DNA of 64,000 nt from Cetorhinus maximus. Taxonomy: Eukaryota. The stretch is taken from assembly GCF_964194155.1 (NCBI RefSeq), contig NC_135901.1, forward strand, positions 28,272,001-28,336,000. Reading direction: 5' to 3'. A program made the translations under genes and the position numbers. The notes beneath the pieces were generated by a model. The model saw only the letters and a list, made by a program, of their open reading frames with translations. It was not told where the DNA came from and made no database searches. Positions 17,675-28,629 of this stretch are shown here, piece after piece (within the stretch, counting starts at the first letter, position 1; every line of letters starts with the position of its first letter).

Positions 17675-18815
17675 TGTTAATTGTATCAATTGACGTTAAG
17701 TATATACAGGTGGGTGTCATGGATTGGATAGTTACTTGAGCACATATGAAGAGACTCTTACTGACATAGAGTGTAGCCAAGTCAGAAGGTATATACCTGT
17801 AATGTTTCACTCAGTAAATAAATCTATACCAAGTAAAGACTGGCTCCAGTTTACTCCTTCACCATCAGGCTGTCAGGATTATAACATGGTAACAGAGAAT
17901 GCTTGTCTCATGGTGAAGGTTGGAAACTAAAGGAAAATAAAATTTCAGACAGAAACTTACAATCTGAGTAGCTTTTGTGAGAAATGGCTGAAAGCAAGTG
18001 GAAATTGTCAGGGTCTGATTACCCGCCGATGTTCTCGGAGTCTGAGCCACACGACCAGTGGAAGAATGAAGTGGAGATGTGGACACGGGTTATGTCCCTA
18101 CCAAGGAGGAAACAAGGTCTGGTCTTGGCATTGTCACTTACCAACAAAAGTAAAATCAGAAGCAAAGTATTTAGTGAGCTAGATGCTGGTCGGTTGGATA
18201 CTGATGAAGGTTTGGATCTTCTATTCGGGTTCATTGATGAGATTTACAAGAAAGATGTTCTAGTGGATGCCTATGAAGCATAGATGGACTTTGACAGGCT
18301 TCGAATGAGGGCAAAAGCATCTGTAACAGATCTGGATATCTCAACAGAAGACAAGATTAGAACAGCACCAATAGGTGAATGAACCCCAGGGGTGACCAGG
18401 GAACAGTTAACAGGTGTTTCAGGTCTGACTCAAAATATCATTATGTGATGAACTGCCCAAAGTGGAAAATCAGGGTCTTCGAAGTGACACATGATACAGA
18501 GAATTCTAAGGCTGAAGATGATGATGATGATCACTCTGAAGGAATTGTACTAGTCACAAGGAGCTTTGGTCCAGTGATGAGTATGTTAGTCACAGACTCA
18601 TTCAACTATGCTGTGTTAGACAGTGGCTGCACCTTGACAGTATGTGGATTAGATTGGTGAACATGTTACCCAGATTCACCTCGTACTGAGGATCGACACA
18701 AGGTTAAGGAGTGTGAAAGTTGGACTTGTCTTGGTTTGGTGATGTCAACGCATTGAAGTCACTAAAAAGAGTGGGGATTCCCTGCAAAATAACTGGAGTC
18801 AGCCTCTTTATCAGT
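17675..18815 (+). mobile_element. GalEa-like Ty1/Copia element 5' part: LTR 17675-17886, PBS, degenerate gag and protease
   Basis: TG...CA LTR with AATAAA at 17817, PBS TGGTAACAGAG, gag 17984-18283, knuckle remnant CFRSDSKYHYVMNC and protease AVLDSGCT. Confidence 0.75.
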
Positions 18816-19594
18816 GTTAACTGTTAAACTTCACCCCGATGACACATTTGTGTAATTAATAAGGCTTATATTACCAAATTATACTGTATGTAAGCTTAAC
18901 GATGAACGGTCTTCAATTGCCTGGCTCTTTCAGTTCCAGATACTGTAATGTAGCTTTAAGAAAAAAAAAACTGGTGTTAAGGTCAGTGTGGAAGAATAAA
19001 ATACATCTACAGGACAACTAAGGGTTAAACAGTTAAAACCATAGTGGAATACTACAGCACAGTTCCCTCTTTTGTTCTAGCAGGCACACCTGCAACTGCC
19101 AGCTAATTGAGCAGGAAAGGAGAAAAGGAGTATCTTAAACAAGCTTCCTAGAATCCTTGAGACAAGCCTAGGATGTCTGCCCCCAACACAAAGAGACAGG
19201 ATCAAGCAATGGTCATCTGTTCTCTAAGAGTGTACACCCCCTAGCACTAAAGATAAGGTCAAGCATGGTTATCTATTCTCTGTCTGACTTTTTATTACTA
19301 TGTGGGCTTCCCCCAATATCCTGTATAGTCATTACTTAGAATAGACTAATTGTGTGTTGCATGCCAAAGACAATGATTCTCAATGTAATTGATTATTGAA
19401 AGTTAGACAGTCTTATCACCTTCAAGCTCTTTGATATGTACGACTTCTACTATAAATATGTATGTACTCTGATGCTTCCTCAGAGTGTCAGCTAGCTCCA
19501 TTGTATGCTGCTGGGCTCTCCGTGATATCACGATTTAATAAAGGCTTCCGAGACAAACCTCCTGGGTCTGAGTGTTCTGTTTTCCGCGACAAAT

Positions 19595-19612
19595 TGGCGA
19601 CGAGGATGGGAT
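19595..19612 (+). promoter_or_regulatory. Primer-binding site, tRNA-Ser(GCU)
   Basis: TGGCGACGAGGATGGGAT is complementary to the 3' 18 nt of vertebrate tRNA-Ser-GCT (recalled, not searched). Confidence 0.85.
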
Positions 19613-20176
19613 CCGACTGAAGTCCAGTAACCTCTTAAATTGGAGAGGTGATTGAAATCCTGGGCCGTCGGATCTCTAAAAAAAGAACCCTCGCGGAGAA
19701 AGGGAGGAATAACTCTCCTAAGTTAGGGTGAGTACGAACTGCATCCTAGCTGAAAGGGGATTGCAGTGAATTAGCGTCCCAGCTGAGAAGGGGACTGCCA
19801 GTAAAAGGGTAGCTACCGACCAAAGAGACTTAAGTGACCCAAAGAATCGGAGGACTTGTTAAGGAACTCTTAAACACCGGTGAGCGCATAGGGTAGGAAA
19901 TGCGCCGCGCTGTTAATTGTGTTTTCTTTTCAGAAAAATGGGAGGTCGCAACAGCAGAGCGGGCTCTGCCACTCCCCCCGCTTCGCAAAGTACTAAGAAC
20001 AAACCGAAACCGGCGAAACCGGAGCTTAAATCAGGAACTTTGAAGATGGGCAAGAAAACGGAATGAAAAATAGATGGAGGTAAAAAAAAGTAGTAGTATA
20101 CCCAGGGGTTCGAGTCCCATGGAGGTGAAAAGTAAGTAATTTCTGTGTTTTCTTTTGTGTATCTTATTAAGTAAAA

Positions 20177-20540
20177 TGGGAAATATGACATCAAAGAAAC
20201 CCCAGGTTCCCCCTTTGAAGGGAACCCCAAATGCTTATATGTATGTCCATTACGGTCCTGAAATTGTCCAACATGTTTCTGATTGGGTTAAATGGACTCA
20301 AAGTAAAGGAGAGAGCTTCCCACCAGCTGGAACTTTTAATCGGGACAGATTTGAGCGCTTATAATATGTTTTAAGGGAGGTAGATCGTCCGCTACTGAAT
20401 TTTCTGTAACTTTAAAAAAAGAATGAATTGATCTAAGTTACAAGAGCTGTTTGTGCTGAAAGAGAGAGAGAGAGAGAGAAAGGGTACCCCTAGGGGGTTA
20501 ATGAGCAATTTGCAAGCAGCAGCAGAGAAAATGTGAGCTT
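20177..20540 (+). pseudogene. gag matrix-like remnant
   Basis: MGNMTSKK (myristoylation-like) ...GTP...W.KWT...FP..GTF, followed by stops. Confidence 0.6.
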
Positions 20541-22079
20541 TCGTCAGTTTGAAGGTCCCTATAGGTGGAGCCTTCAAGATCCCTTTATTCCCCCCACTGC
20601 TACTCGAAGATTCGTTTAGAGTTAAGTTCAATATTAAAGGAGTATCGATACATACCTTTATATATGTGTTTGTGTGCAATGAAGCATTTGCATGTGAGCT
20701 TTAATGTGTTTTCTTCCCTGAATTGTCTTGTGTGTGTAGTTGAGCACTTTAGAGTCGAAAGCCCCAGATTAGATTAAAGGAAAAGTTTATTCAAATATTC
20801 CAAAGTTTTGAGTATAAGGTTTGAGTTGAGATTTCTGGCAAAAATTGTAATTTGAAGGTAGTGTAAAGATAAAACAGGGCTTGCCTTCGTTTGAGATGAA
20901 CCAACCCTTGTACCACCCTCTCGCAGACTAGTAGGGAATAACCCTCATCATCAGCTTCCAAGCTGATTGGGATTAATACATACGAGTTCATATTCTAAAA
21001 TTCTGAGAAAAAGAAATTACTTGAAATTCAGAAGGATTCTAGGAAAACCAAAAGACATAAACACAAGGTCTAGATAGTTCCAATGGATAAAAAGGGGTTT
21101 CTTATGAAAGAGATGAATTAAATATGAAAGGAAATCTGCTTTCCAAAAGCACTGGAATCTGAATTTGGGACAATCTTGAGATGTAAAGTGCAGTGTAATT
21201 TAACAGGTTACTTTTGAATCACTAGGATGCTATCTAAGATAAAGAATGTGTCGATAAACATACTTAAATTATAACTTGGATCCAAATCATTACACATGAA
21301 AAAGAGGTTGTTTTAATTTTGATAGTGTAAATTACAGTTCTTACAAAGTTTAAAAATTTGAGGTTTGGTTCTCGATAAAGTTCTCAAAAGGAAATATTCA
21401 TTTTAAAAGGCCTGACAACAATTGGCACTAATTCAAATGCTGCAAGCTTTTGTGTTTATAAGTCTGTTCCCAAAATATGAAGCTAAGCTCAAGACCTTGG
21501 CAAAGTTTGGCAGAAATCCAATTTTTGGCCGAGTTAATGAATCTGGGATAATTCTAAAAGAAAAGGGTCAGACACAATTTAGTGGGCTACCTTTAAGACA
21601 ATAAAATCTTTGAGAAGAAGAAAAGGAAGCAAAACACGTCAATACCTGATTTCTGTTTTAAAACTGTTATGAGAATACTTTATTGGATTGTAAAGTCTCT
21701 CCAGACAACCTGAACAAGATAAGATGGTAGCTGTTGCAAGTGTAATATGGTATGAGGCAAGTAGGAGAATGAGTTAGGGAAAGAGGACATAATGTACAAA
21801 CTGTTTTAAGGGAAGTGAATTTGATAATCTGGCCATCAACTGAGGCATTGGAACTGCACAGGGGGAGATAAGCAAAGATCTAGAGACAGAGATCCCCGTT
21901 GAAATGGAATAGTTAATATGGCCTAAAGAGTAAGGAAACATTTTAAACAATCAAGACAATAGAGAAACTGAACTCAAGAGAACCTTAGGATGATCATGGT
22001 CAGGAAAGAAAACTTAGAGGTAAAACTATGAGGAATCTGTAGTTCAGGAATTGAAATGTAAGGAGAAATAATACTTAAC

Positions 22080-22830
22080 AACAATTTACCACAAGATGGA
22101 TACAGGTAAAGGGAAAGCTGGAAAAAGGCTAAATAGATGTATTACTGATTATATTAATGTGCCTGTGAGCTACAAAAAGTAAAACCATAGGATTAACACC
22201 TTGATGACAGGCAGAGTTAAGCGGTTCCCAGAGAGAACCATCACTGGAAGTGAAGATACTGAGCCATTGAAAGATAGGATAAGAAGGTGCGTTGTAGAGT
22301 TGTTTAAGGAATTGAGGTCTGACATGAGACAGCAGCAGGAGAGAGTAAACTGGAAGGAGTGGGGGTGCCTACCCAGATGGATTCAGATCAGGGAACTCAT
22401 TTCACAGGGAGAGTCATTAAAGAAGTATGTAATCTTATGGAGATTAAACAGAAATTCCATATTCCTTACCACACCCAGAGTCCAGGGATGGTGGAAAGGA
22501 TGAACTGAACTTTAAAAACATCTATAGCCTAAACAATTCAGGAGACAGGCAACAGCTGGACCACAGTATTGCCCAGCATTCTGATGCGGCTTAGGGCTAC
22601 ACCAAATAAGACTACCAGGTTCACCGCATTGAATTGATAACAGGAAGGGCTATGCAATTACCTGAAGGTATTATAGTAGGAGGTGTAGGGCCACAGAAAT
22701 GAAAAATACAGGACAATGTAAGGGAATTAAGTAGGAAATTGCATGAGTTAAGGAAGGAAGTCAGAGACCGACAGGTGATTAAGGATATGGAAACAGGCAA
22801 ATCCAAAGAGAAAGATACATGACAATTGAC
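22080..22830 (+). pseudogene. Integrase remnant 1
   Basis: FHIPYHTQSPGMVERMN*TLK...W..VLP..LM.LRATP from ~22455. Confidence 0.75.
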
Positions 22831-22880
22831 CAAGCGGTAACCCAGAGAATGGGAGCCGATGTTAATGTCTCCACAGATCT

Positions 22881-24055
22881 ATGATCCTGGTCATGGGCAT
22901 ATCAGTACTGGCAACAAGGTCGGGGATCATCACTGCTCATCCTGCACCGCAGGAGGAACTTTGGTACAGCATGGACAGTGCTGAATGCTACACGCAAAGG
23001 GGAATGATAAATGTAACAGTAGGAGAACAAGTGCTTTCAAATTGTAGTAAGGGTTTGCTTCAGATCGAGCATGGGAGGTCCGCCACTACCCAGCCACCTC
23101 CCACCTCTACTTTCACAGTCTGAGTAGAGATAATTGTAGCCCCTCAAACCACACCGACTGATCCATCTTGTCTGACTATGCATCCAGGACCGACGAATGG
23201 TTTGGTACTGGTTAATCAGAAGTTTTGTATGATAATGTACACCATGAGCTGGTACCCGTAGTCTTGAATATATCGGGAATCGTCCTGCCCCAATGGTGCT
23301 CAATCCATACCCAAGCACTCTATAAGGCTCTGAAGTGCCAATTGATGACTGAAACAGTTGTTCAATGGCGAGATGCGATCAGGCTTGGGAGGGAACCGTG
23401 TTAAGCGCAGCCTGATAAATGATGCCACTATGATATTCAATATAGGGACATCATTGGTTAATCCAAAGTCTGGCTACCGTGCTCGAAAGTCATGCGGGCA
23501 CTATCAATAAATTAATTGAAATAGGAAAAAATATTTCAGACGAAGTGAGCAGAAATGATGTATGCAACACCTATGGATCTTGGGCACTGGAACAAGCCCG
23601 AGAAAATTTAAGACAGATTAATGAAGGGGTAGTCCCTTTATGGGTAACTAATGAGCATTTATTGAATCTCTCACGACACAGGAATCATGACTTGACTGGT
23701 TGCCAGCTCAGGGGTTTAACACGTGTATGTAGAATGAATGTTGAATGTATAGTGAATAGTAATATGCTAATAGGCATTGTATTAGTAATAAAAACAGAAT
23801 TACCTGGAAAAACTCAGCAAGTCTGGCAGCATCGGCGGAGAAGAAATCAGTCAACGTTTCGAGCCCTCATGGCCCTTCAGCAGAATGCTGAAGGGCCATG
23901 AGGGCTCGAAACGTTGACTGATTTCTTCTCCGCCGATGCTGCCAGACTTGCTGAGTTTTTCCAGGTAATTCTGTTTTTATTTTGTTTTGGATTTCCAGCA
24001 TCCGCAGTAGCTTTTAGCTTTTTGTTTTTATCATTGTATTAGTAATACCTGTCAT
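22881..24055 (+). pseudogene. env-like gene 1 (non-gamma type), degenerate and 3'-truncated
   Basis: Splice acceptor ctccacag just before ATG 22881, hydrophobic signal-like N-terminus, Cys-rich with heptad-like segments, in the post-integrase position. Confidence 0.5.
23791..24031. mobile_element. 241-bp palindromic mini-PLE
   Basis: Perfect arms 23787-23882 and 23886-23981 with a 3-nt loop. 16-bp TSD cattgtattagtaata (23775-23790; 24032-24047). Confidence 0.95.
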
Positions 24056-24059
24056 ACCT

Positions 24060-24720
24060 ATGTCAATGACATAACCCAGGCAAGACACCCACAGTGACTG
24101 CTGGTACGGGACCCCAGCCATGGGGCCCATTTGTACACCTACAAATGGACTTTATACAAATGCCTAAATGTATGGAATATAATTATGTTTTAGTTCTAGT
24201 ATGTTTGTTCTCGCGATGGGTGGAGGCGTATCCCACCCGACGAAATGATGCTGTTGTTGTTGTTAAATTGTTGTTCATTTTACTGCTAAAGTGATAAAGG
24301 AACTGTTGAAGGCCTTACAATGCAACCATCACCTTTCCTGCCCATACCACCCCTAGTCTACTGGAGCGGTGGAAGGACAAAATGGTATTCTGAAAAACAA
24401 ACTAGCTAAATTATGTGAAGAAACCAGTTTGAAAGGGCCTGAAGCTCTACCCTTGGCGCTCATGACTATGTGCTCTCACCCTAACTATCTCAAGAGCTTG
24501 CATATACAGGTAGTAGAAGCTCAGAAAAAGCCCACCATTGAAGACTGCCATCAATACCAGCCCGGGGACCTAGTCCTAGTAAAGACCTTCAGGAGAAAGA
24601 ACTGTTTGGAACCTCGATGGGAAGGGCCTTTCCAAGTCCTGCTCACCACCCATATGGCCATAAACGTTGAAGGACGCCCTTGTGGATCCACGCATCGCAC
24701 GTCAAGCGGACGCTGACCTC
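24060..24720 (+). pseudogene. Integrase remnant 2 (gamma/epsilon-like)
   Basis: PFVHLQMDFIQMP...VCLFSRWVEAYP; YHP*STGAVE..NG.LK; LEPRWEGPFQVLLTT. Confidence 0.85.
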
Positions 24721-24919
24721 GGACGGAAGTGCTTGTGCAAGAACTTTAACTGAGCCGTCGGAATGCTGACTCTGATTTGGATCCTGTCCTGCGTGGTCCT
24801 TGCGGGGGCATGGAATACCAATTCTGCAGTTCAATGAATGCAGGCCGTAGCCTCGCAAGTTAATCGGACTAAATGTTGGATTTGTACTCATTTTCTTCTA
24901 TGCAAAACAGCAGCTGAAT

Positions 24920-25030
24920 TGCATGAGAGGGTGGAAAGGACCCTACCTTGTGCTGCTAACAACTCGAACGGCCCTGAAGATTAAAGGGAAGGAAGATTGG
25001 GTCCACGCCACTCGTTGTAAAAAAGAAACA
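24920..25030 (+). pseudogene. Third integrase fragment (GPY/F C-terminal domain only)
   Basis: WKGPYLVLLTTRTALKIKGKEDWVHATRCKK. Confidence 0.8.
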
Positions 25031-25078
25031 TTGTCAGGCAGTCCTATAACCGTCATTACCAGTGAACTAATTTGCATT

Positions 25079-26451
25079 ATGTATCGGATACTGTCTTTTG
25101 CTATATTCTGTCTTTTTGCTATATTCTGTGAAGTATACCCAAAGGATTCTCACCCCAACACCTTTTTGTCTTTATGCCGCGCCTATGCTAGACAAGTAGG
25201 ACAGGGCGCCTGTTGGATATGTGCCCAGACTCCCCATCATGGAGGTGAGTCAAGCACCTATCAGGCAAAACCAATGACTGAGGAAGAAGTGAAGGATCTC
25301 ACAAATTTCCACACCCAGTCAGATGATGCAGAATCCAATATGTTCAGGGGATGGTTCCGTCGCTCTCCACCTGCTAATGGGTGGAAATACAGATCATGGG
25401 ATAAGAATCAAGCCTCCTCAGGAGCCAATAAACGCCACCTGTTGGTGTTCGAACCTTGCAACCGATACCTATAACCTGGGAAACAGTAGTTGCCAAAACA
25501 CCATATCTACTAGCCCTGGTAGTTATGATCCTCAAAATCCTCTAAATGGTACATACTGGGTTTGTGGGGAAAAAGCATATCTCTGGCTGCCTGGGATGTC
25601 ACAATTATCTTCCTTCTTTAATCAAGATACCGGAAGTTTGGGCAAGGATGCTACCACTCCCACCTGGAGTGGCTGCTGCTACCTAGCATATTTGAATCCC
25701 TATCTTCGCTATATAAGTAAATTAGATATTCACCCGCATCTACGTCTACATCGCCGTGACATCTCGGAATCCGAACGATTCTGGATGATTGCTATCCCCT
25801 CTTATGGAGCTGCTCGTAATTCCCGAGAGATTATCAACCTGGCAGCTGCACTTGAAAAATTTGCTAATTCAACGGCTGATGCTTTGATTGAGACACAGAA
25901 ACAGATTTCAGCTACCACTACTGAAATGATAGCCCTACGCCTGACCGCCTTACAAAATAGAATGGCCCTTGATTTCCTCCTAGCTGAAAAAGGTGGCACT
26001 TGTGCCATGATAGGTTCAGAGTGCTGCACTTGTGTGCCTGGTGTTTCTGAGAACATTACTAACCTGGGACAGCATGTTATGGATAAAGTGCAAGAAATAA
26101 AGAAAGTTGGGGAAAGACAGTAATTTTTATAACAAGGATTCCTGGTGGGCTACAGTAATGGGGTGGTTCCCTGGTTGGGGAAGTTGGCTGCTGTATGTTT
26201 TAATTGGGTTGGTCATAGCATGTGTTATAGGGTGTTGTGCATGTGTTGCTCTGCGAATTTGCTGTTCCCAGGTTATTAACAGTGTCTCTACTGGATTAGG
26301 AGGAACTCCAATTATTCCCCAAATGGGGCGCACTGGCCCCAGCGAAGCCCACTGGTGGGGAGAGAAAGTTTACCCCGCCAGAGATCGGCCTTTTCCTTAT
26401 GGTTATGAACCCCCATATGATAATGAAGATACTATTCCTCATTGGTGTTAA
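25079..26451 (+). pseudogene. env: Gamma-type env, about two frameshifts
   Basis: Signal peptide, CWIC, furin site RLHRR, ISD LQNRMALDFLLAEKGGTC, CX6CC and TM helix. Confidence 0.92.
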
Positions 26452-28629
26452 TCTAGAAGATTAACAAGGAGGGACTGTGGGAGAATAAAATACATATACA
26501 GGATAACAAAGGGTTAAGTGGTTAAACTATATAATGGAATATTACAACGAAGTGTCCTTGAAACTAGGCCCATCCGTTTTCTCACTAGCACATAAAATAA
26601 TAGACTAGTCGCGCTATCAGCTACCTTCCCAGACTAATGGGCGCCAGATGGGTTGTGCAAGTGTCAGATGTGGTTGTAAACTAAAAGAACTATTGTGTGC
26701 ATGCCAAAAGATATGTACTTTTTTGCTATAACTATGTGTGTACTCTGATGCTTCCTCAGAGTGTCAGCTAGCTCCATTGTATGCTGCTGGGCTCTCCGTG
26801 ATATCACGATTTAATAAAGGCTTCGGAGACAAACCTCCTGGGTCTGAGTGTTCACTCCATTTTCCGCGACACCTTGAATTAACATTAATACATCTCGAAT
26901 CAGGCCTGTTGTCAACAGACAATTGGTCATTGTTATTCCTGAGTTAATTTTATTGGATTGAACCATTTTCATACATTGTTCCATGGAGCAGAACAATTGG
27001 GCTGTTCAGGATCTTTCTTTTTATCTGAGTTTAGGCAATGTTACGGAGAGAGATGGGGATTGCACAGTGAATTCCAGCCCCACTACCTCACGGACCATAA
27101 CAATAGTTTAAATGTTTAATTCATCCACAAAACAGGCCAATTGTTACCCTTTGCTACTGTTATTCTCAGCCCAAAAAAACTCTAACCAGGCTTCTTTCAG
27201 TCACACAAAAAAGTTGAATTATTATAAAACAAACTATTTTTTAAAAACAAGTGAATGAACTGGTTAACATACAACTTGCAGTTTAGAAGTACAACGATTT
27301 TCCCTTTTTTAAAAAAAACACATTTTTGAACCCCCATACACACACATACACACAAACACAAAACAGGACAAAACAAATACAGTCCCCTGCAGAGGCTGGA
27401 GTATGGGAAAGTTTCTTTAAAAAGGGATCACAACGATGTTGATCTAACAGAATTCTAGTCATAATAGGTCAGGAGGTTCCTCTAGACAGATTTTTTGGTG
27501 AAACTGTCCTTGATGACTCTTATTTATCACAACGTTGCAGACTTCCAAAAAACACAGATAAATTATCCTGATGAGATGTTTCTGAGGAAGGTTTAACACA
27601 AAGGTGGGGCAGAGAGAGGGGAAGAGAGTCTTTTCTTCCAGCCTGCTTCAAAGGCACACAAACAATCTCTCTAACTGAGGGTTTTAAAGGACTAAGATGG
27701 TCAAAGAATACTTCTCTTAAGCTAGGGGTTTTTAACCAATCAGCAAAAGTCTTTAGTTTGGCAACAGTGGTTCTTTGTTAATTTTGATACATAAAGTATC
27801 TCTTCCCTCTCCAGGTGTTCCCGCTGGGTAGCTTAATTCACCCGTGATTTATTGACGAACAGCACATTCACAGCACTGAATTAATATTGCAGACTTCTAA
27901 TTCAATGTTCTTCAAATTATCCAAAAAATGGCTCCTCACAACAAGATCATAAATGGTTTACATCGAGGACATAAAGAGAAACTGTTTCCACTGACAAAAG
28001 GGTTGTTAACCAGAGGACACAGATTGAAGGTGATTGACATAAAAGCCAGAAGGGAAATGAGGAAGATAAATCTTTACACAGTGATGTGTTGTGATCTGGA
28101 ATGCACTACCTGAAAGGCTGGTGGAAGCAGATTCAACAAAGGGAATTGGATAAATCCTGGAAGGGGACTAGTTTGCAGGGCTCATGGGGAAAGGGCAAGA
28201 TAGTGGGACTAATTGAGTAGCTCTTTCAAAGAGCCAGCATAGGCACGATGGGCTCAATAGCCTCCTTCTGTGCTGTGAAAGTCTGTGAACATAGATAAAT
28301 AAATGCGTGTCTGTAATATATACAGTGATGTCAATAATATCTGGAATTCCCTTTTTCACATTTCAGAATTTTATCCCTTTCCTTCCAGTTTGATTTTGGA
28401 CAAAGAGAACAAAAGCAAATCACTCAGTACATTGAGAGCCCCGATGTCTATTCTCGGCCAGCATTACACAGGGGGAAAAGGGCTGGATTCTCAGACCAGC
28501 AAGTCAAGGCCTCCTCTTTAAATGGCCACTTCCCACAATGGATTCAGTGGCCTCTGAAGGAAAGCAGCTTCGGTCCACACTGGGAGTTCCTGCCCCCCTG
28601 TCGGCTGGCTCATGCTGGCTTATGCTCCT

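What the first reader, a model, noticed from the sequence alone, without database searches (positions are those of the whole stretch)
18987..26871. Mosaic ERV: two env-like genes, three integrase pieces, no RT, non-matching LTRs
Seen order: LTR(605 bp)-PBS(Ser)-gag stub-~1.5 kb AT-rich decayed DNA-IN1-env1-IN2-IN3 C-terminus-gamma env-PPT-LTR(396 bp). The LTRs share the first ~65 nt and the R/U5 region, but their U3 middles are unrelated. The flanks (gtcag / ccttg) give no TSD. I found no YxDD RT motif. Inference: a non-autonomous element that serially captured 3' modules from at least two or three retroviral lineages, and/or a recombinant of two proviruses. The gamma env is far better preserved than the 5' modules, so it looks like the latest acquisition.
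Basis: partly seen in the sequence, partly recalled or inferred. Interest (0 to 1): 0.7.

Follow-up and report, generated by a model that had tools for sequence, protein, structure and literature searches.

The report
Russian-doll retroviral parasite in shark
This is one of over 200 copies of a dead-gene retroviral element, in what is likely a shark, built like nested dolls from pieces of at least three different retroviruses that still sit in the same genome, each newer virus likely having wrapped its own two ends around the older passenger and spread it again.

Summary
The mosaic is real and is a family, not a one-off: 233 places carry its env2|IN3 junction, and 24 of 27 copies with matched LTRs have a 5-bp target duplication. 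It is not built by 3' capture alone. It is symmetric nesting: a Ser-primed class I ERV (V3) gives both ends, a second class I ERV (V2) the next layer on both sides, and a non-class-I ERV with a paramyxovirus-F-like env (V1) plus a relative give the core. All three donors occur here as gag-pol-env proviruses, and both intermediate non-autonomous families (Y, X) survive. The unmatched LTRs and missing target duplication are a separate, local event: this copy joins halves of two subtypes with flanks from two sites, likely ectopic recombination; misassembly is not excluded. Closest known: koala recKoRV, one layer only. Template switching is inferred, not shown. The scan's earlier notes held nothing on this element.

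The parts
18982..18986 (+). 5' flank GTCAG; integration site 1 in a repeated unit of the zinc-finger gene cluster
   Evidence: 13 of 14 paralogous empty sites continue with the same other sequence, none with an LTR or with the 3' flank
18987..19591 (+). 5' LTR, subtype A (outer virus V3)
   Evidence: 94-97% to both LTRs of A-type copies, 93-94% to LTRs of V3 proviruses L167, L168
19595..19612 (+). primer-binding site, tRNA-Ser(GCT)
   Evidence: same site in V3 proviruses
19613..20063 (+). V3 leader and first ~42 codons of V3 gag (ATG 19938)
   Evidence: match to V3 proviruses ends at 20063 in 17 of 17 V3 loci
20076..20384 (+). V2 leader repeat and first ~70 codons of V2 gag (ATG 20176)
   Evidence: 86-90% to V2 proviruses L138, L140, L141, L179-L181; leader repeat 81-83% to X copy L152
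20387..22120 (+). AT-rich non-coding core of unknown source; begins just after what reads as a V1-clade gag start
   Evidence: shared by families W, X and Y and absent from the V1, V2, V3 proviruses examined; no Rfam match in this stretch; fold z = 0.0
22124..22345 (+). integrase piece 0 (end of core domain), V1 clade, source not found
   Evidence: tblastx hits in 9 of 21 V1-clade loci, 35-58% aa
22361..22813 (+). integrase piece 1, from a V1 relative (V0)
   Evidence: 85% nt over 433 to L220, 67-70% to V1; Pfam rve
22866..24066 (+). env1: broken 5' two-thirds of the V1 F-type envelope gene (signal peptide, RVKR site, heptad region), C-terminal third missing
   Evidence: 88% aa over 110 to the full V1 env frame; fold matches RSV/paramyxovirus F, E 5.8e-12
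23791..24031 (.). hairpin repeat inserted into env1, private to this copy; 16-bp target duplication 23775-23790 / 24032-24047
   Evidence: sequence; absent in 16 of 16 aligned copies
24058..24720 (+). integrase piece 2 (V2), with internal deletions
   Evidence: 89-91% aa to V2; Pfam rve and MLVIN_C
24763..24895 (+). env2 stub: signal peptide and CWIC motif of the V2 gamma-type env
   Evidence: continues into longer env2 in X copies and V2; longer V2 env frames hit TLV_coat, E 1e-27 and 1e-24
24898..25030 (+). integrase piece 3: C-terminal tip of V3 integrase
   Evidence: 90% nt to V3 L167; MLVIN_C
25079..26451 (+). env3: gamma-type env of V3, split over three frames
   Evidence: TLV_coat E 2e-8; 93% nt to V3 L175 over 25300-25700
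26466..26474 (+). polypurine tract
   Evidence: sequence; same in W copies and V3
26476..26871 (+). 3' LTR, subtype B
   Evidence: 93-99% to both LTRs of B-type copies C22, C14a, C33, C8, L115
26872..26876 (+). 3' flank CCTTG; integration site 2
   Evidence: 14 of 14 paralogous empty sites are preceded by another sequence, not the 5' flank

Best explanation
The element is a copy of a high-copy, non-autonomous retroviral family (W) whose sequence is three nested layers from three retroviruses of this genome, likely made by repeated double template switches in which a newer active virus put its own LTR, primer site, leader and 3' end around an older passenger RNA and then likely copied it in trans. 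Shown: layer order V3[ V2[ V1[ AT-rich core + IN0 + IN1 ] ] ]; the donors as gag-pol-env proviruses; the intermediate families Y (V1 ends) and X (V2 ends); spread of W by integration. Inferred: co-packaging and template switching, mobilisation by V3 proteins, and the order Y then X then W. W subtypes later swapped their ends with different V3 lineages (D-type copies carry D-type leader, env and LTR). This copy then likely recombined with a second W provirus in the zinc-finger cluster, crossing over between about 21.4 and 22.3 kb, which explains the A/B LTR pair and the lost target duplication.
For: Family: 233 matches to the env2|IN3 junction, reversed-pattern control 0; 52 of 55 W-class loci hold all seven internal markers. 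Integration: 27 of 32 resolved copies have matched LTRs, median 98.1%, 24 of these 27 with a 5-bp duplication at most 1 mismatch. V3: 17 of 20 fetched Pol loci match the focal 5' part up to 20063 and a 3' part from 24930 (25099 in L175), and nothing between but short integrase homology. V2: six proviruses match 20149/20175-20384 and 24058-24895 only. V1: L194, L197, L219, L232 match env1, IN1 only at 67-72%. Intermediates: 19 X and 15 Y loci among 108 classified; some X copies keep a V1 gag piece behind the V2 gag start. Short shared words lie at the X env1|IN2, Y gag1|core and L205 core|pol junctions. Order: mean pairwise distance W 4.3/4.6%, X 6.3/5.5%, Y 7.0/9.6% in two segments; W is one clade (0.997; 0.904 with X_L127 and L108) inside X; LTR-pair identity X median 95.8% (12 pairs) against W 98.1%. 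End swapping: D-type W copies are 92-97% to V3-D env and 74-77% to V3-A. Local recombination: 4 A-state sites up to 21411, then 24 B-state sites from 22741; flanks from two different empty sites; other mismatched-LTR copies without target duplication exist (L120; C48/C60/C334, one event).
Against: No RNA, packaging or reverse-transcription data. The env2|IN3 junction has at most 2 shared letters and the V3|V2 junction has a short unassigned filler that varies between copies. Tree supports inside X and Y are mostly under 0.9, the AT-segment tree has no outgroup, only 14 of 55 W rows were used, and Y_L208, Y_L196 and V1 L197 fall among X rows, so back-flow occurred or the order is less clean. 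The source of the AT-rich core and of IN0 was not found; V0 rests on one locus. 22 of 54 W copies were not resolved for both LTRs, and 3 of 27 matched pairs lack a duplication. No donor at over 95% to W's outer layer was found (85-94%). No contig piece shown bridged the 5' flank-LTR junction in 4 runs, so the local chimera is not confirmed outside this assembly.
Confidence: 0.8

Rival explanations
1. DNA-level nesting: an X provirus integrated inside a V3 provirus (and earlier a Y inside a V2), and deletions on both sides removed the inner LTRs and the host's gag-pol; the product then spread in trans.
For: Gives the same mirror order; internal deletions are common in the family; two junctions lack clear shared words.
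Against: Needs one integration and two deletions per layer, each removing the inner LTR and primer site entirely; no LTR-X marker in 55 W loci, and no inner LTR by self-alignment; three other junctions sit on shared words.
Confidence: 0.12
2. Serial capture of 3' integrase-env modules by one persistent element.
For: The 3' half does read IN-env, IN-env, IN-env from three sources.
Against: The 5' end is layered in mirror order, and LTR, primer site and leader change with each layer: they match V3 in W, V2 in X, V1 in Y.
Confidence: 0.03
3. For the LTR mismatch only: an assembly misjoin between two W copies in a repeat-rich cluster, not a real recombination.
For: It predicts the same A-half/B-half pattern and unrelated flanks; the cluster is full of near-identical units; public contigs did not confirm the 5' junction.
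Against: The two missing halves were not found: 0 of 60 loci holding the expected opposite flanks carry an LTR (each search scored only its best 40). The halves differ from sister copies by 2-6%, and other mismatched copies exist.
Confidence: 0.12

Closest known systems
recKoRV1 of koala (PMC6112702, passages read)
   Same: 5' LTR and gag leader plus env end and 3' LTR of a newer virus around the interior of an older element; target duplications; microhomologies at some breakpoints; co-packaging proposed.
   Different: One layer and two parents there; here three layers, at least four sources, both intermediates kept as their own families, 233 or more copies, and the core comes from outside class I.
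ETn/MusD of mouse and mysTR-related non-autonomous ERVs of deer mouse (PMC6466679, PMC10089650, passages read)
   Same: Non-coding, high-copy elements with helper-type ends and a replaced interior, moved in trans.
   Different: Their interior is described as non-homologous or of unclear source; here most of it is traced to named older proviruses in mirror order.
Serial env capture SERV to BaEV to RD-114 (PMC10536682, passages read)
   Same: Successive recombination across retroviral lineages.
   Different: Those replace env and give working viruses; here dead integrase-env stubs pile up in a non-coding passenger.
Lokiretroviruses (PMC7947760; passages, section 5, supplement part 1 and two supplement searches)
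   Same: V1 env has signal peptide, RxKR site, coiled coil, TM and an F-like fold.
   Different: V1 RT lacks the motif seen in the 6 distinct loki Pol passages displayed and groups inside retroviruses; that paper found none in 6 chondrichthyan genomes.
Foamy-virus Env and shark snakehead-like ERVs (PMC11468914 passages; PMC4422223 part 1 of 2)
   Same: Foamy Env shares a core with paramyxo/pneumovirus F; V1 RT is closest to foamy RT among solved structures; elephant shark has a snakehead-like lineage beside two epsilon-like ones.
   Different: V1 gag has a CCHC knuckle and in C32 env ends about 190 nt before the 3' LTR, leaving no accessory region; no snakehead sequence was at hand to test membership.

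Membership tests
Non-autonomous LTR retroelement moved in trans | LTRs, PBS and PPT kept, no RT | tested here: met
Non-autonomous LTR retroelement moved in trans | Dispersed copies with matched LTRs and target duplications | tested here: met
   24 of 27 matched pairs; 233 junction matches
Non-autonomous LTR retroelement moved in trans | Coding relative with the same ends in the genome | tested here: met
   V3 proviruses with RT motif and long pol frames, same PBS and LTR subtypes
Non-autonomous LTR retroelement moved in trans | Helper proteins shown to package and copy it | not testable with these tools
   inferred only
recKoRV-type recombinant (works like) | Both ends from a newer virus, interior from an older element | tested here: met
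   three times over
recKoRV-type recombinant (works like) | Microhomology at breakpoints | tested here: inconclusive
   present at three layer junctions in X, Y and L205, at most 2 nt at env2|IN3, unclear at V3|V2
Class I (gamma/epsilon-like) ERV: V2 and V3 | RT closest to MLV; TLV_coat env | tested here: met
   MLV E 7e-51 and 3.5e-51 against foamy 1e-31 and 1e-28; TLV_coat; one clade with other class I-like Pols. Gamma versus epsilon not tested.
Lokiretrovirus: V1 | Env similar to paramyxo/pneumovirus F | tested here: met
   Foldseek RSV F E 5.8e-12 on a model of mean pLDDT 52, TM-scores 0.2-0.4; Atlas hits of a homolog to Baculo_F, Gypsy, Fusion_gly 0.92-0.95; no Pfam hit by sequence
Lokiretrovirus: V1 | RT sister to all retroviruses | tested here: not met
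   V1 lies inside retroviruses; P0066, which by eye bears the loki-type motif, branches outside (support 100). No labelled loki sequence was in the tree.
Foamy virus or snakehead-like (class III) ERV: V1 | RT groups with foamy or snakehead references | tested here: inconclusive
   foamy RT is the best solved match, E 3e-41 against MLV 4e-35; no reference sequences in the tree
Post-insertion recombinant of two proviruses (this copy) | Different LTR subtypes, internal switch, flanks from two sites | tested here: met
Post-insertion recombinant of two proviruses (this copy) | Single molecules span both flanks | not testable with these tools
   short contigs only; one search gave no bridging piece

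The most novel reading that the evidence does not exclude
The 1.7-kb AT-rich core is a portable cis-acting RNA element that helps any retroviral shell carrying it to be exported or packaged, so that one non-coding parasite has survived by changing shells across three retroviral waves and across the boundary between class I and F-env retroviruses. It sits in four differently built carriers (L205 type, Y, X, W) and is kept at 0.96-1.0 over 20487-21987 in W while env3 is kept at 0.33-0.41, but holding part of it was a condition of the classification, inner layers ride along by construction, and it shows no folding signal.
Probability: 0.2. Interest if true: 0.8.

Novelty: new variant of a known kind. 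Interest (0 to 1): 0.62.

Why it matters
recKoRV shows that an invading retrovirus can remobilise an older dead element once. Here the process looks iterated three times with donors and intermediates all preserved, which gives a readable order of retroviral waves in one genome and implies RNA of an F-env, non-class-I retrovirus derivative met class I machinery in the germ line. It also warns that pol-anchored ERV surveys miss such families and that env-next-to-integrase pairings in them are false evidence of env swapping in viruses. A side result is a shark ERV clade with an F-type env that is not a lokiretrovirus.

Tried and rejected
Lokiretrovirus origin of env1: first idea, rejected on RT. 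Word-based protein search with the 114-aa env1 piece found nothing; Atlas with it gave only scores of 0.86; Pfam on env1 frames and 13 homologs found no relevant family; profile search of PDB sequences found nothing below E 0.07; single-sequence fold of a homolog was unusable, pLDDT 34. Source of the AT-rich core: not found in 20 V1-clade loci; genome searches are saturated by the families. Rfam hits over 23811-23957 are all below gathering score and reflect the hairpin insertion. Reciprocal halves of the local recombination: none in 60 flank loci; another W piece in the cluster (L297) is a 5'-truncated C-type copy with another flank. Laying four runs on the 5' junction gave only short contigs, none shown bridging it; the 3' junction remains unchecked in public runs. 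Literature searches listed no report of a multi-layer ERV of this kind or of this family; only listings were seen for most, subscription papers and repeat libraries were not searchable, and the paper on a cartilaginous-fish foamy ERV (PMC9972966, seen only as a reference title) was not held.
Full report
Observation. The 605-bp and 396-bp LTRs align over their first 70 nt and last 160 nt only, the flanks differ, the primer site matches tRNA-Ser(GCT) genes of this genome, Pfam finds the integrase pieces and a TLV_coat env, and no RT is present. The window holds C2H2 zinc-finger arrays on both sides. The host is likely a shark: all 10 env1 homologs looked up carry shark names, and earlier notes on this genome say the same.

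It is a family. A DNA search of the genome scored 19 candidates and returned 18 other loci with the same internal order. A 114-aa env1 piece gave 150 of 150 scored matches at 89-100%. A 28-nt pattern over the env2|IN3 junction matches 233 places, control 0; some are segmental duplicates. Of 108 loci classified by markers, 55 are this family (W, focal included), and 52 of them hold all seven internal markers. Of 54 other W copies, 32 were resolved for both LTRs: 27 have matched pairs (median 98.1%), and 24 of these have a 5-bp duplication with at most one mismatch. So the mosaic spread by integration as a unit.

Outer layer, V3. A Pol search led to 20 fetched loci; 17 match the focal element from the LTR or leader to 20063 and again from 24930 (25099 in one), with RT motifs and long pol frames between. 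Five of them share flanks and count as one insertion. They carry the same Ser primer site. Their RT is MLV-like. W subtypes track V3 lineages: D-type copies have D-type leader (95-97%), env (92-97%) and LTR; B and C types have env closest to L175 (93-94%); A-type LTRs match V3-A.

Middle layer, V2. Three of the first 40 extra copies had another LTR (455 bp) and another primer site (Gln by my recall, not tested) around the same core, ended in a longer env2 and lacked IN3-env3 (one of the three is 3'-truncated). A search with their junction region gave 16 more such X copies and 4 loci without the core among 20 fetched; three of these, and three more, are proviruses with the X LTR that match the focal element only at 20149/20175-20384 and 24058-24895. 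V2 RT is MLV-like too and sister to V3 in the tree.

Inner layer, V1. env1 has 17 homologs at E up to 0.001 among 1.84 billion representatives. The C-terminal part of one found 125 genome matches. Of 19 loci fetched, 15 are a third family, Y: a third LTR and leader, the same core, and a complete env1; two (L194, L197) are proviruses with pol and without the AT-rich core. One Y-class locus, L205, joins the core to V1 pol instead. A natural 727-aa env frame folds (mean pLDDT 52, N-terminal 210 residues unresolved) to a model whose best PDB matches are RSV and paramyxovirus F (E 5.8e-12); the viral library adds walleye epidermal hyperplasia virus env (1.9e-8) and feline foamy env (3.8e-6). V1 RT is closest to foamy RT among solved structures and lies inside retroviruses but outside the class I clade. 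It is not a lokiretrovirus by RT. IN1 is not V1's own integrase: it is 85% to a relative, L220, and 67-70% to V1. A further integrase piece lies at 22124-22345. The AT-rich stretch before it has no found source.

Order and mechanism. Reading inwards from both ends gives V3, V2, V1, core. X copies keep more of env1 and of IN2 than W, and some keep a V1 gag piece that W lost; Y keeps all of env1. Diversity rises from W to X to Y in two segments, and W forms one clade inside X (14 of 55 W rows used, weak inner supports, a few Y and V1 rows among X, no outgroup for the AT segment). X LTR pairs are older than W pairs (95.8% against 98.1%). X_L127 has X LTRs with the W-type env1|IN2 deletion, an intermediate or a back-recombinant. 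Three layer junctions sit on short shared words; two do not clearly. The simplest route is the one proposed for recKoRV (PMC6112702, passages): co-packaging and two template switches, which keep the helper's cis signals at both ends and drop its gag-pol. This step is inferred. Nested DNA insertion with double deletions is the main rival.

This copy. Diagnostic sites are A-type to 21411 and B-type from 22741; nearest neighbours in 300-nt windows narrow the switch to about 21.4-22.3 kb. Paralogous empty sites show the two flanks come from different positions of the cluster's repeat units. That is ectopic recombination between two W proviruses after insertion, or an assembly misjoin; the missing halves were not found in 60 flank loci and public contigs did not settle it. 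The hairpin insertion in env1 is private to this copy.

Novelty. One-layer versions are known (recKoRV; ETn/MusD and deer-mouse elements, passages read), and serial env capture is known in working viruses. Seven searches listed no three-layer case; repeat libraries and subscription papers could not be checked. I rate it a new variant of a known kind, with an unusually complete record. The names V0-V3, W, X, Y are mine; the tRNA identities for V1 and V2 primer sites and the HE1 label are recalled or taken from earlier notes, not tested.

Noticed in passing
L194 (G000:C32, env frame 557-2737 minus), L197, L219, L232 and L214-L233: A diverse shark ERV clade with F-type env, CCHC gag and RT nearest to foamy among solved structures; not loki by RT. 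125 env matches and many RT matches in this genome.
   Followed up: partly
window 23791-24031; also C15b LTRs (L033): A ~240-bp repeat forming a 97-bp near-perfect hairpin followed by a T-rich tail; hairpin forms recur at other loci, so it is a repeat variant rather than a one-off inversion.
   Followed up: partly
L164, L165, L166, L173, L174 (C24 42-58 Mb, C254): One V3 provirus with mismatched LTRs (76%) and no target duplication, copied at least five times with its flanks.
   Followed up: no
L031, L032, L035 (C48, C60, C334); L120; L122: Other W copies with unlike LTRs at the two ends, so inter-provirus recombination is not rare.
   Followed up: partly
L205 (G000:C5:23658100-23668000): V1 ends around the AT-rich core joined straight to V1 pol at a 7-nt shared word: a separately built carrier of the core.
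   Followed up: partly
window 17981-18700: Decayed frames that read like a gag-protease remnant of another LTR element, part of a unit repeated about 40 times in the C24 26.9-31.3 Mb zinc-finger cluster; no Pfam hit.
   Followed up: no
L137, L143, L152 leaders: V2-type leader holds a 40-80-bp tandem repeat expanded to over 10 units in some X copies; one unit survives in the focal element at 20076-20134.
   Followed up: no
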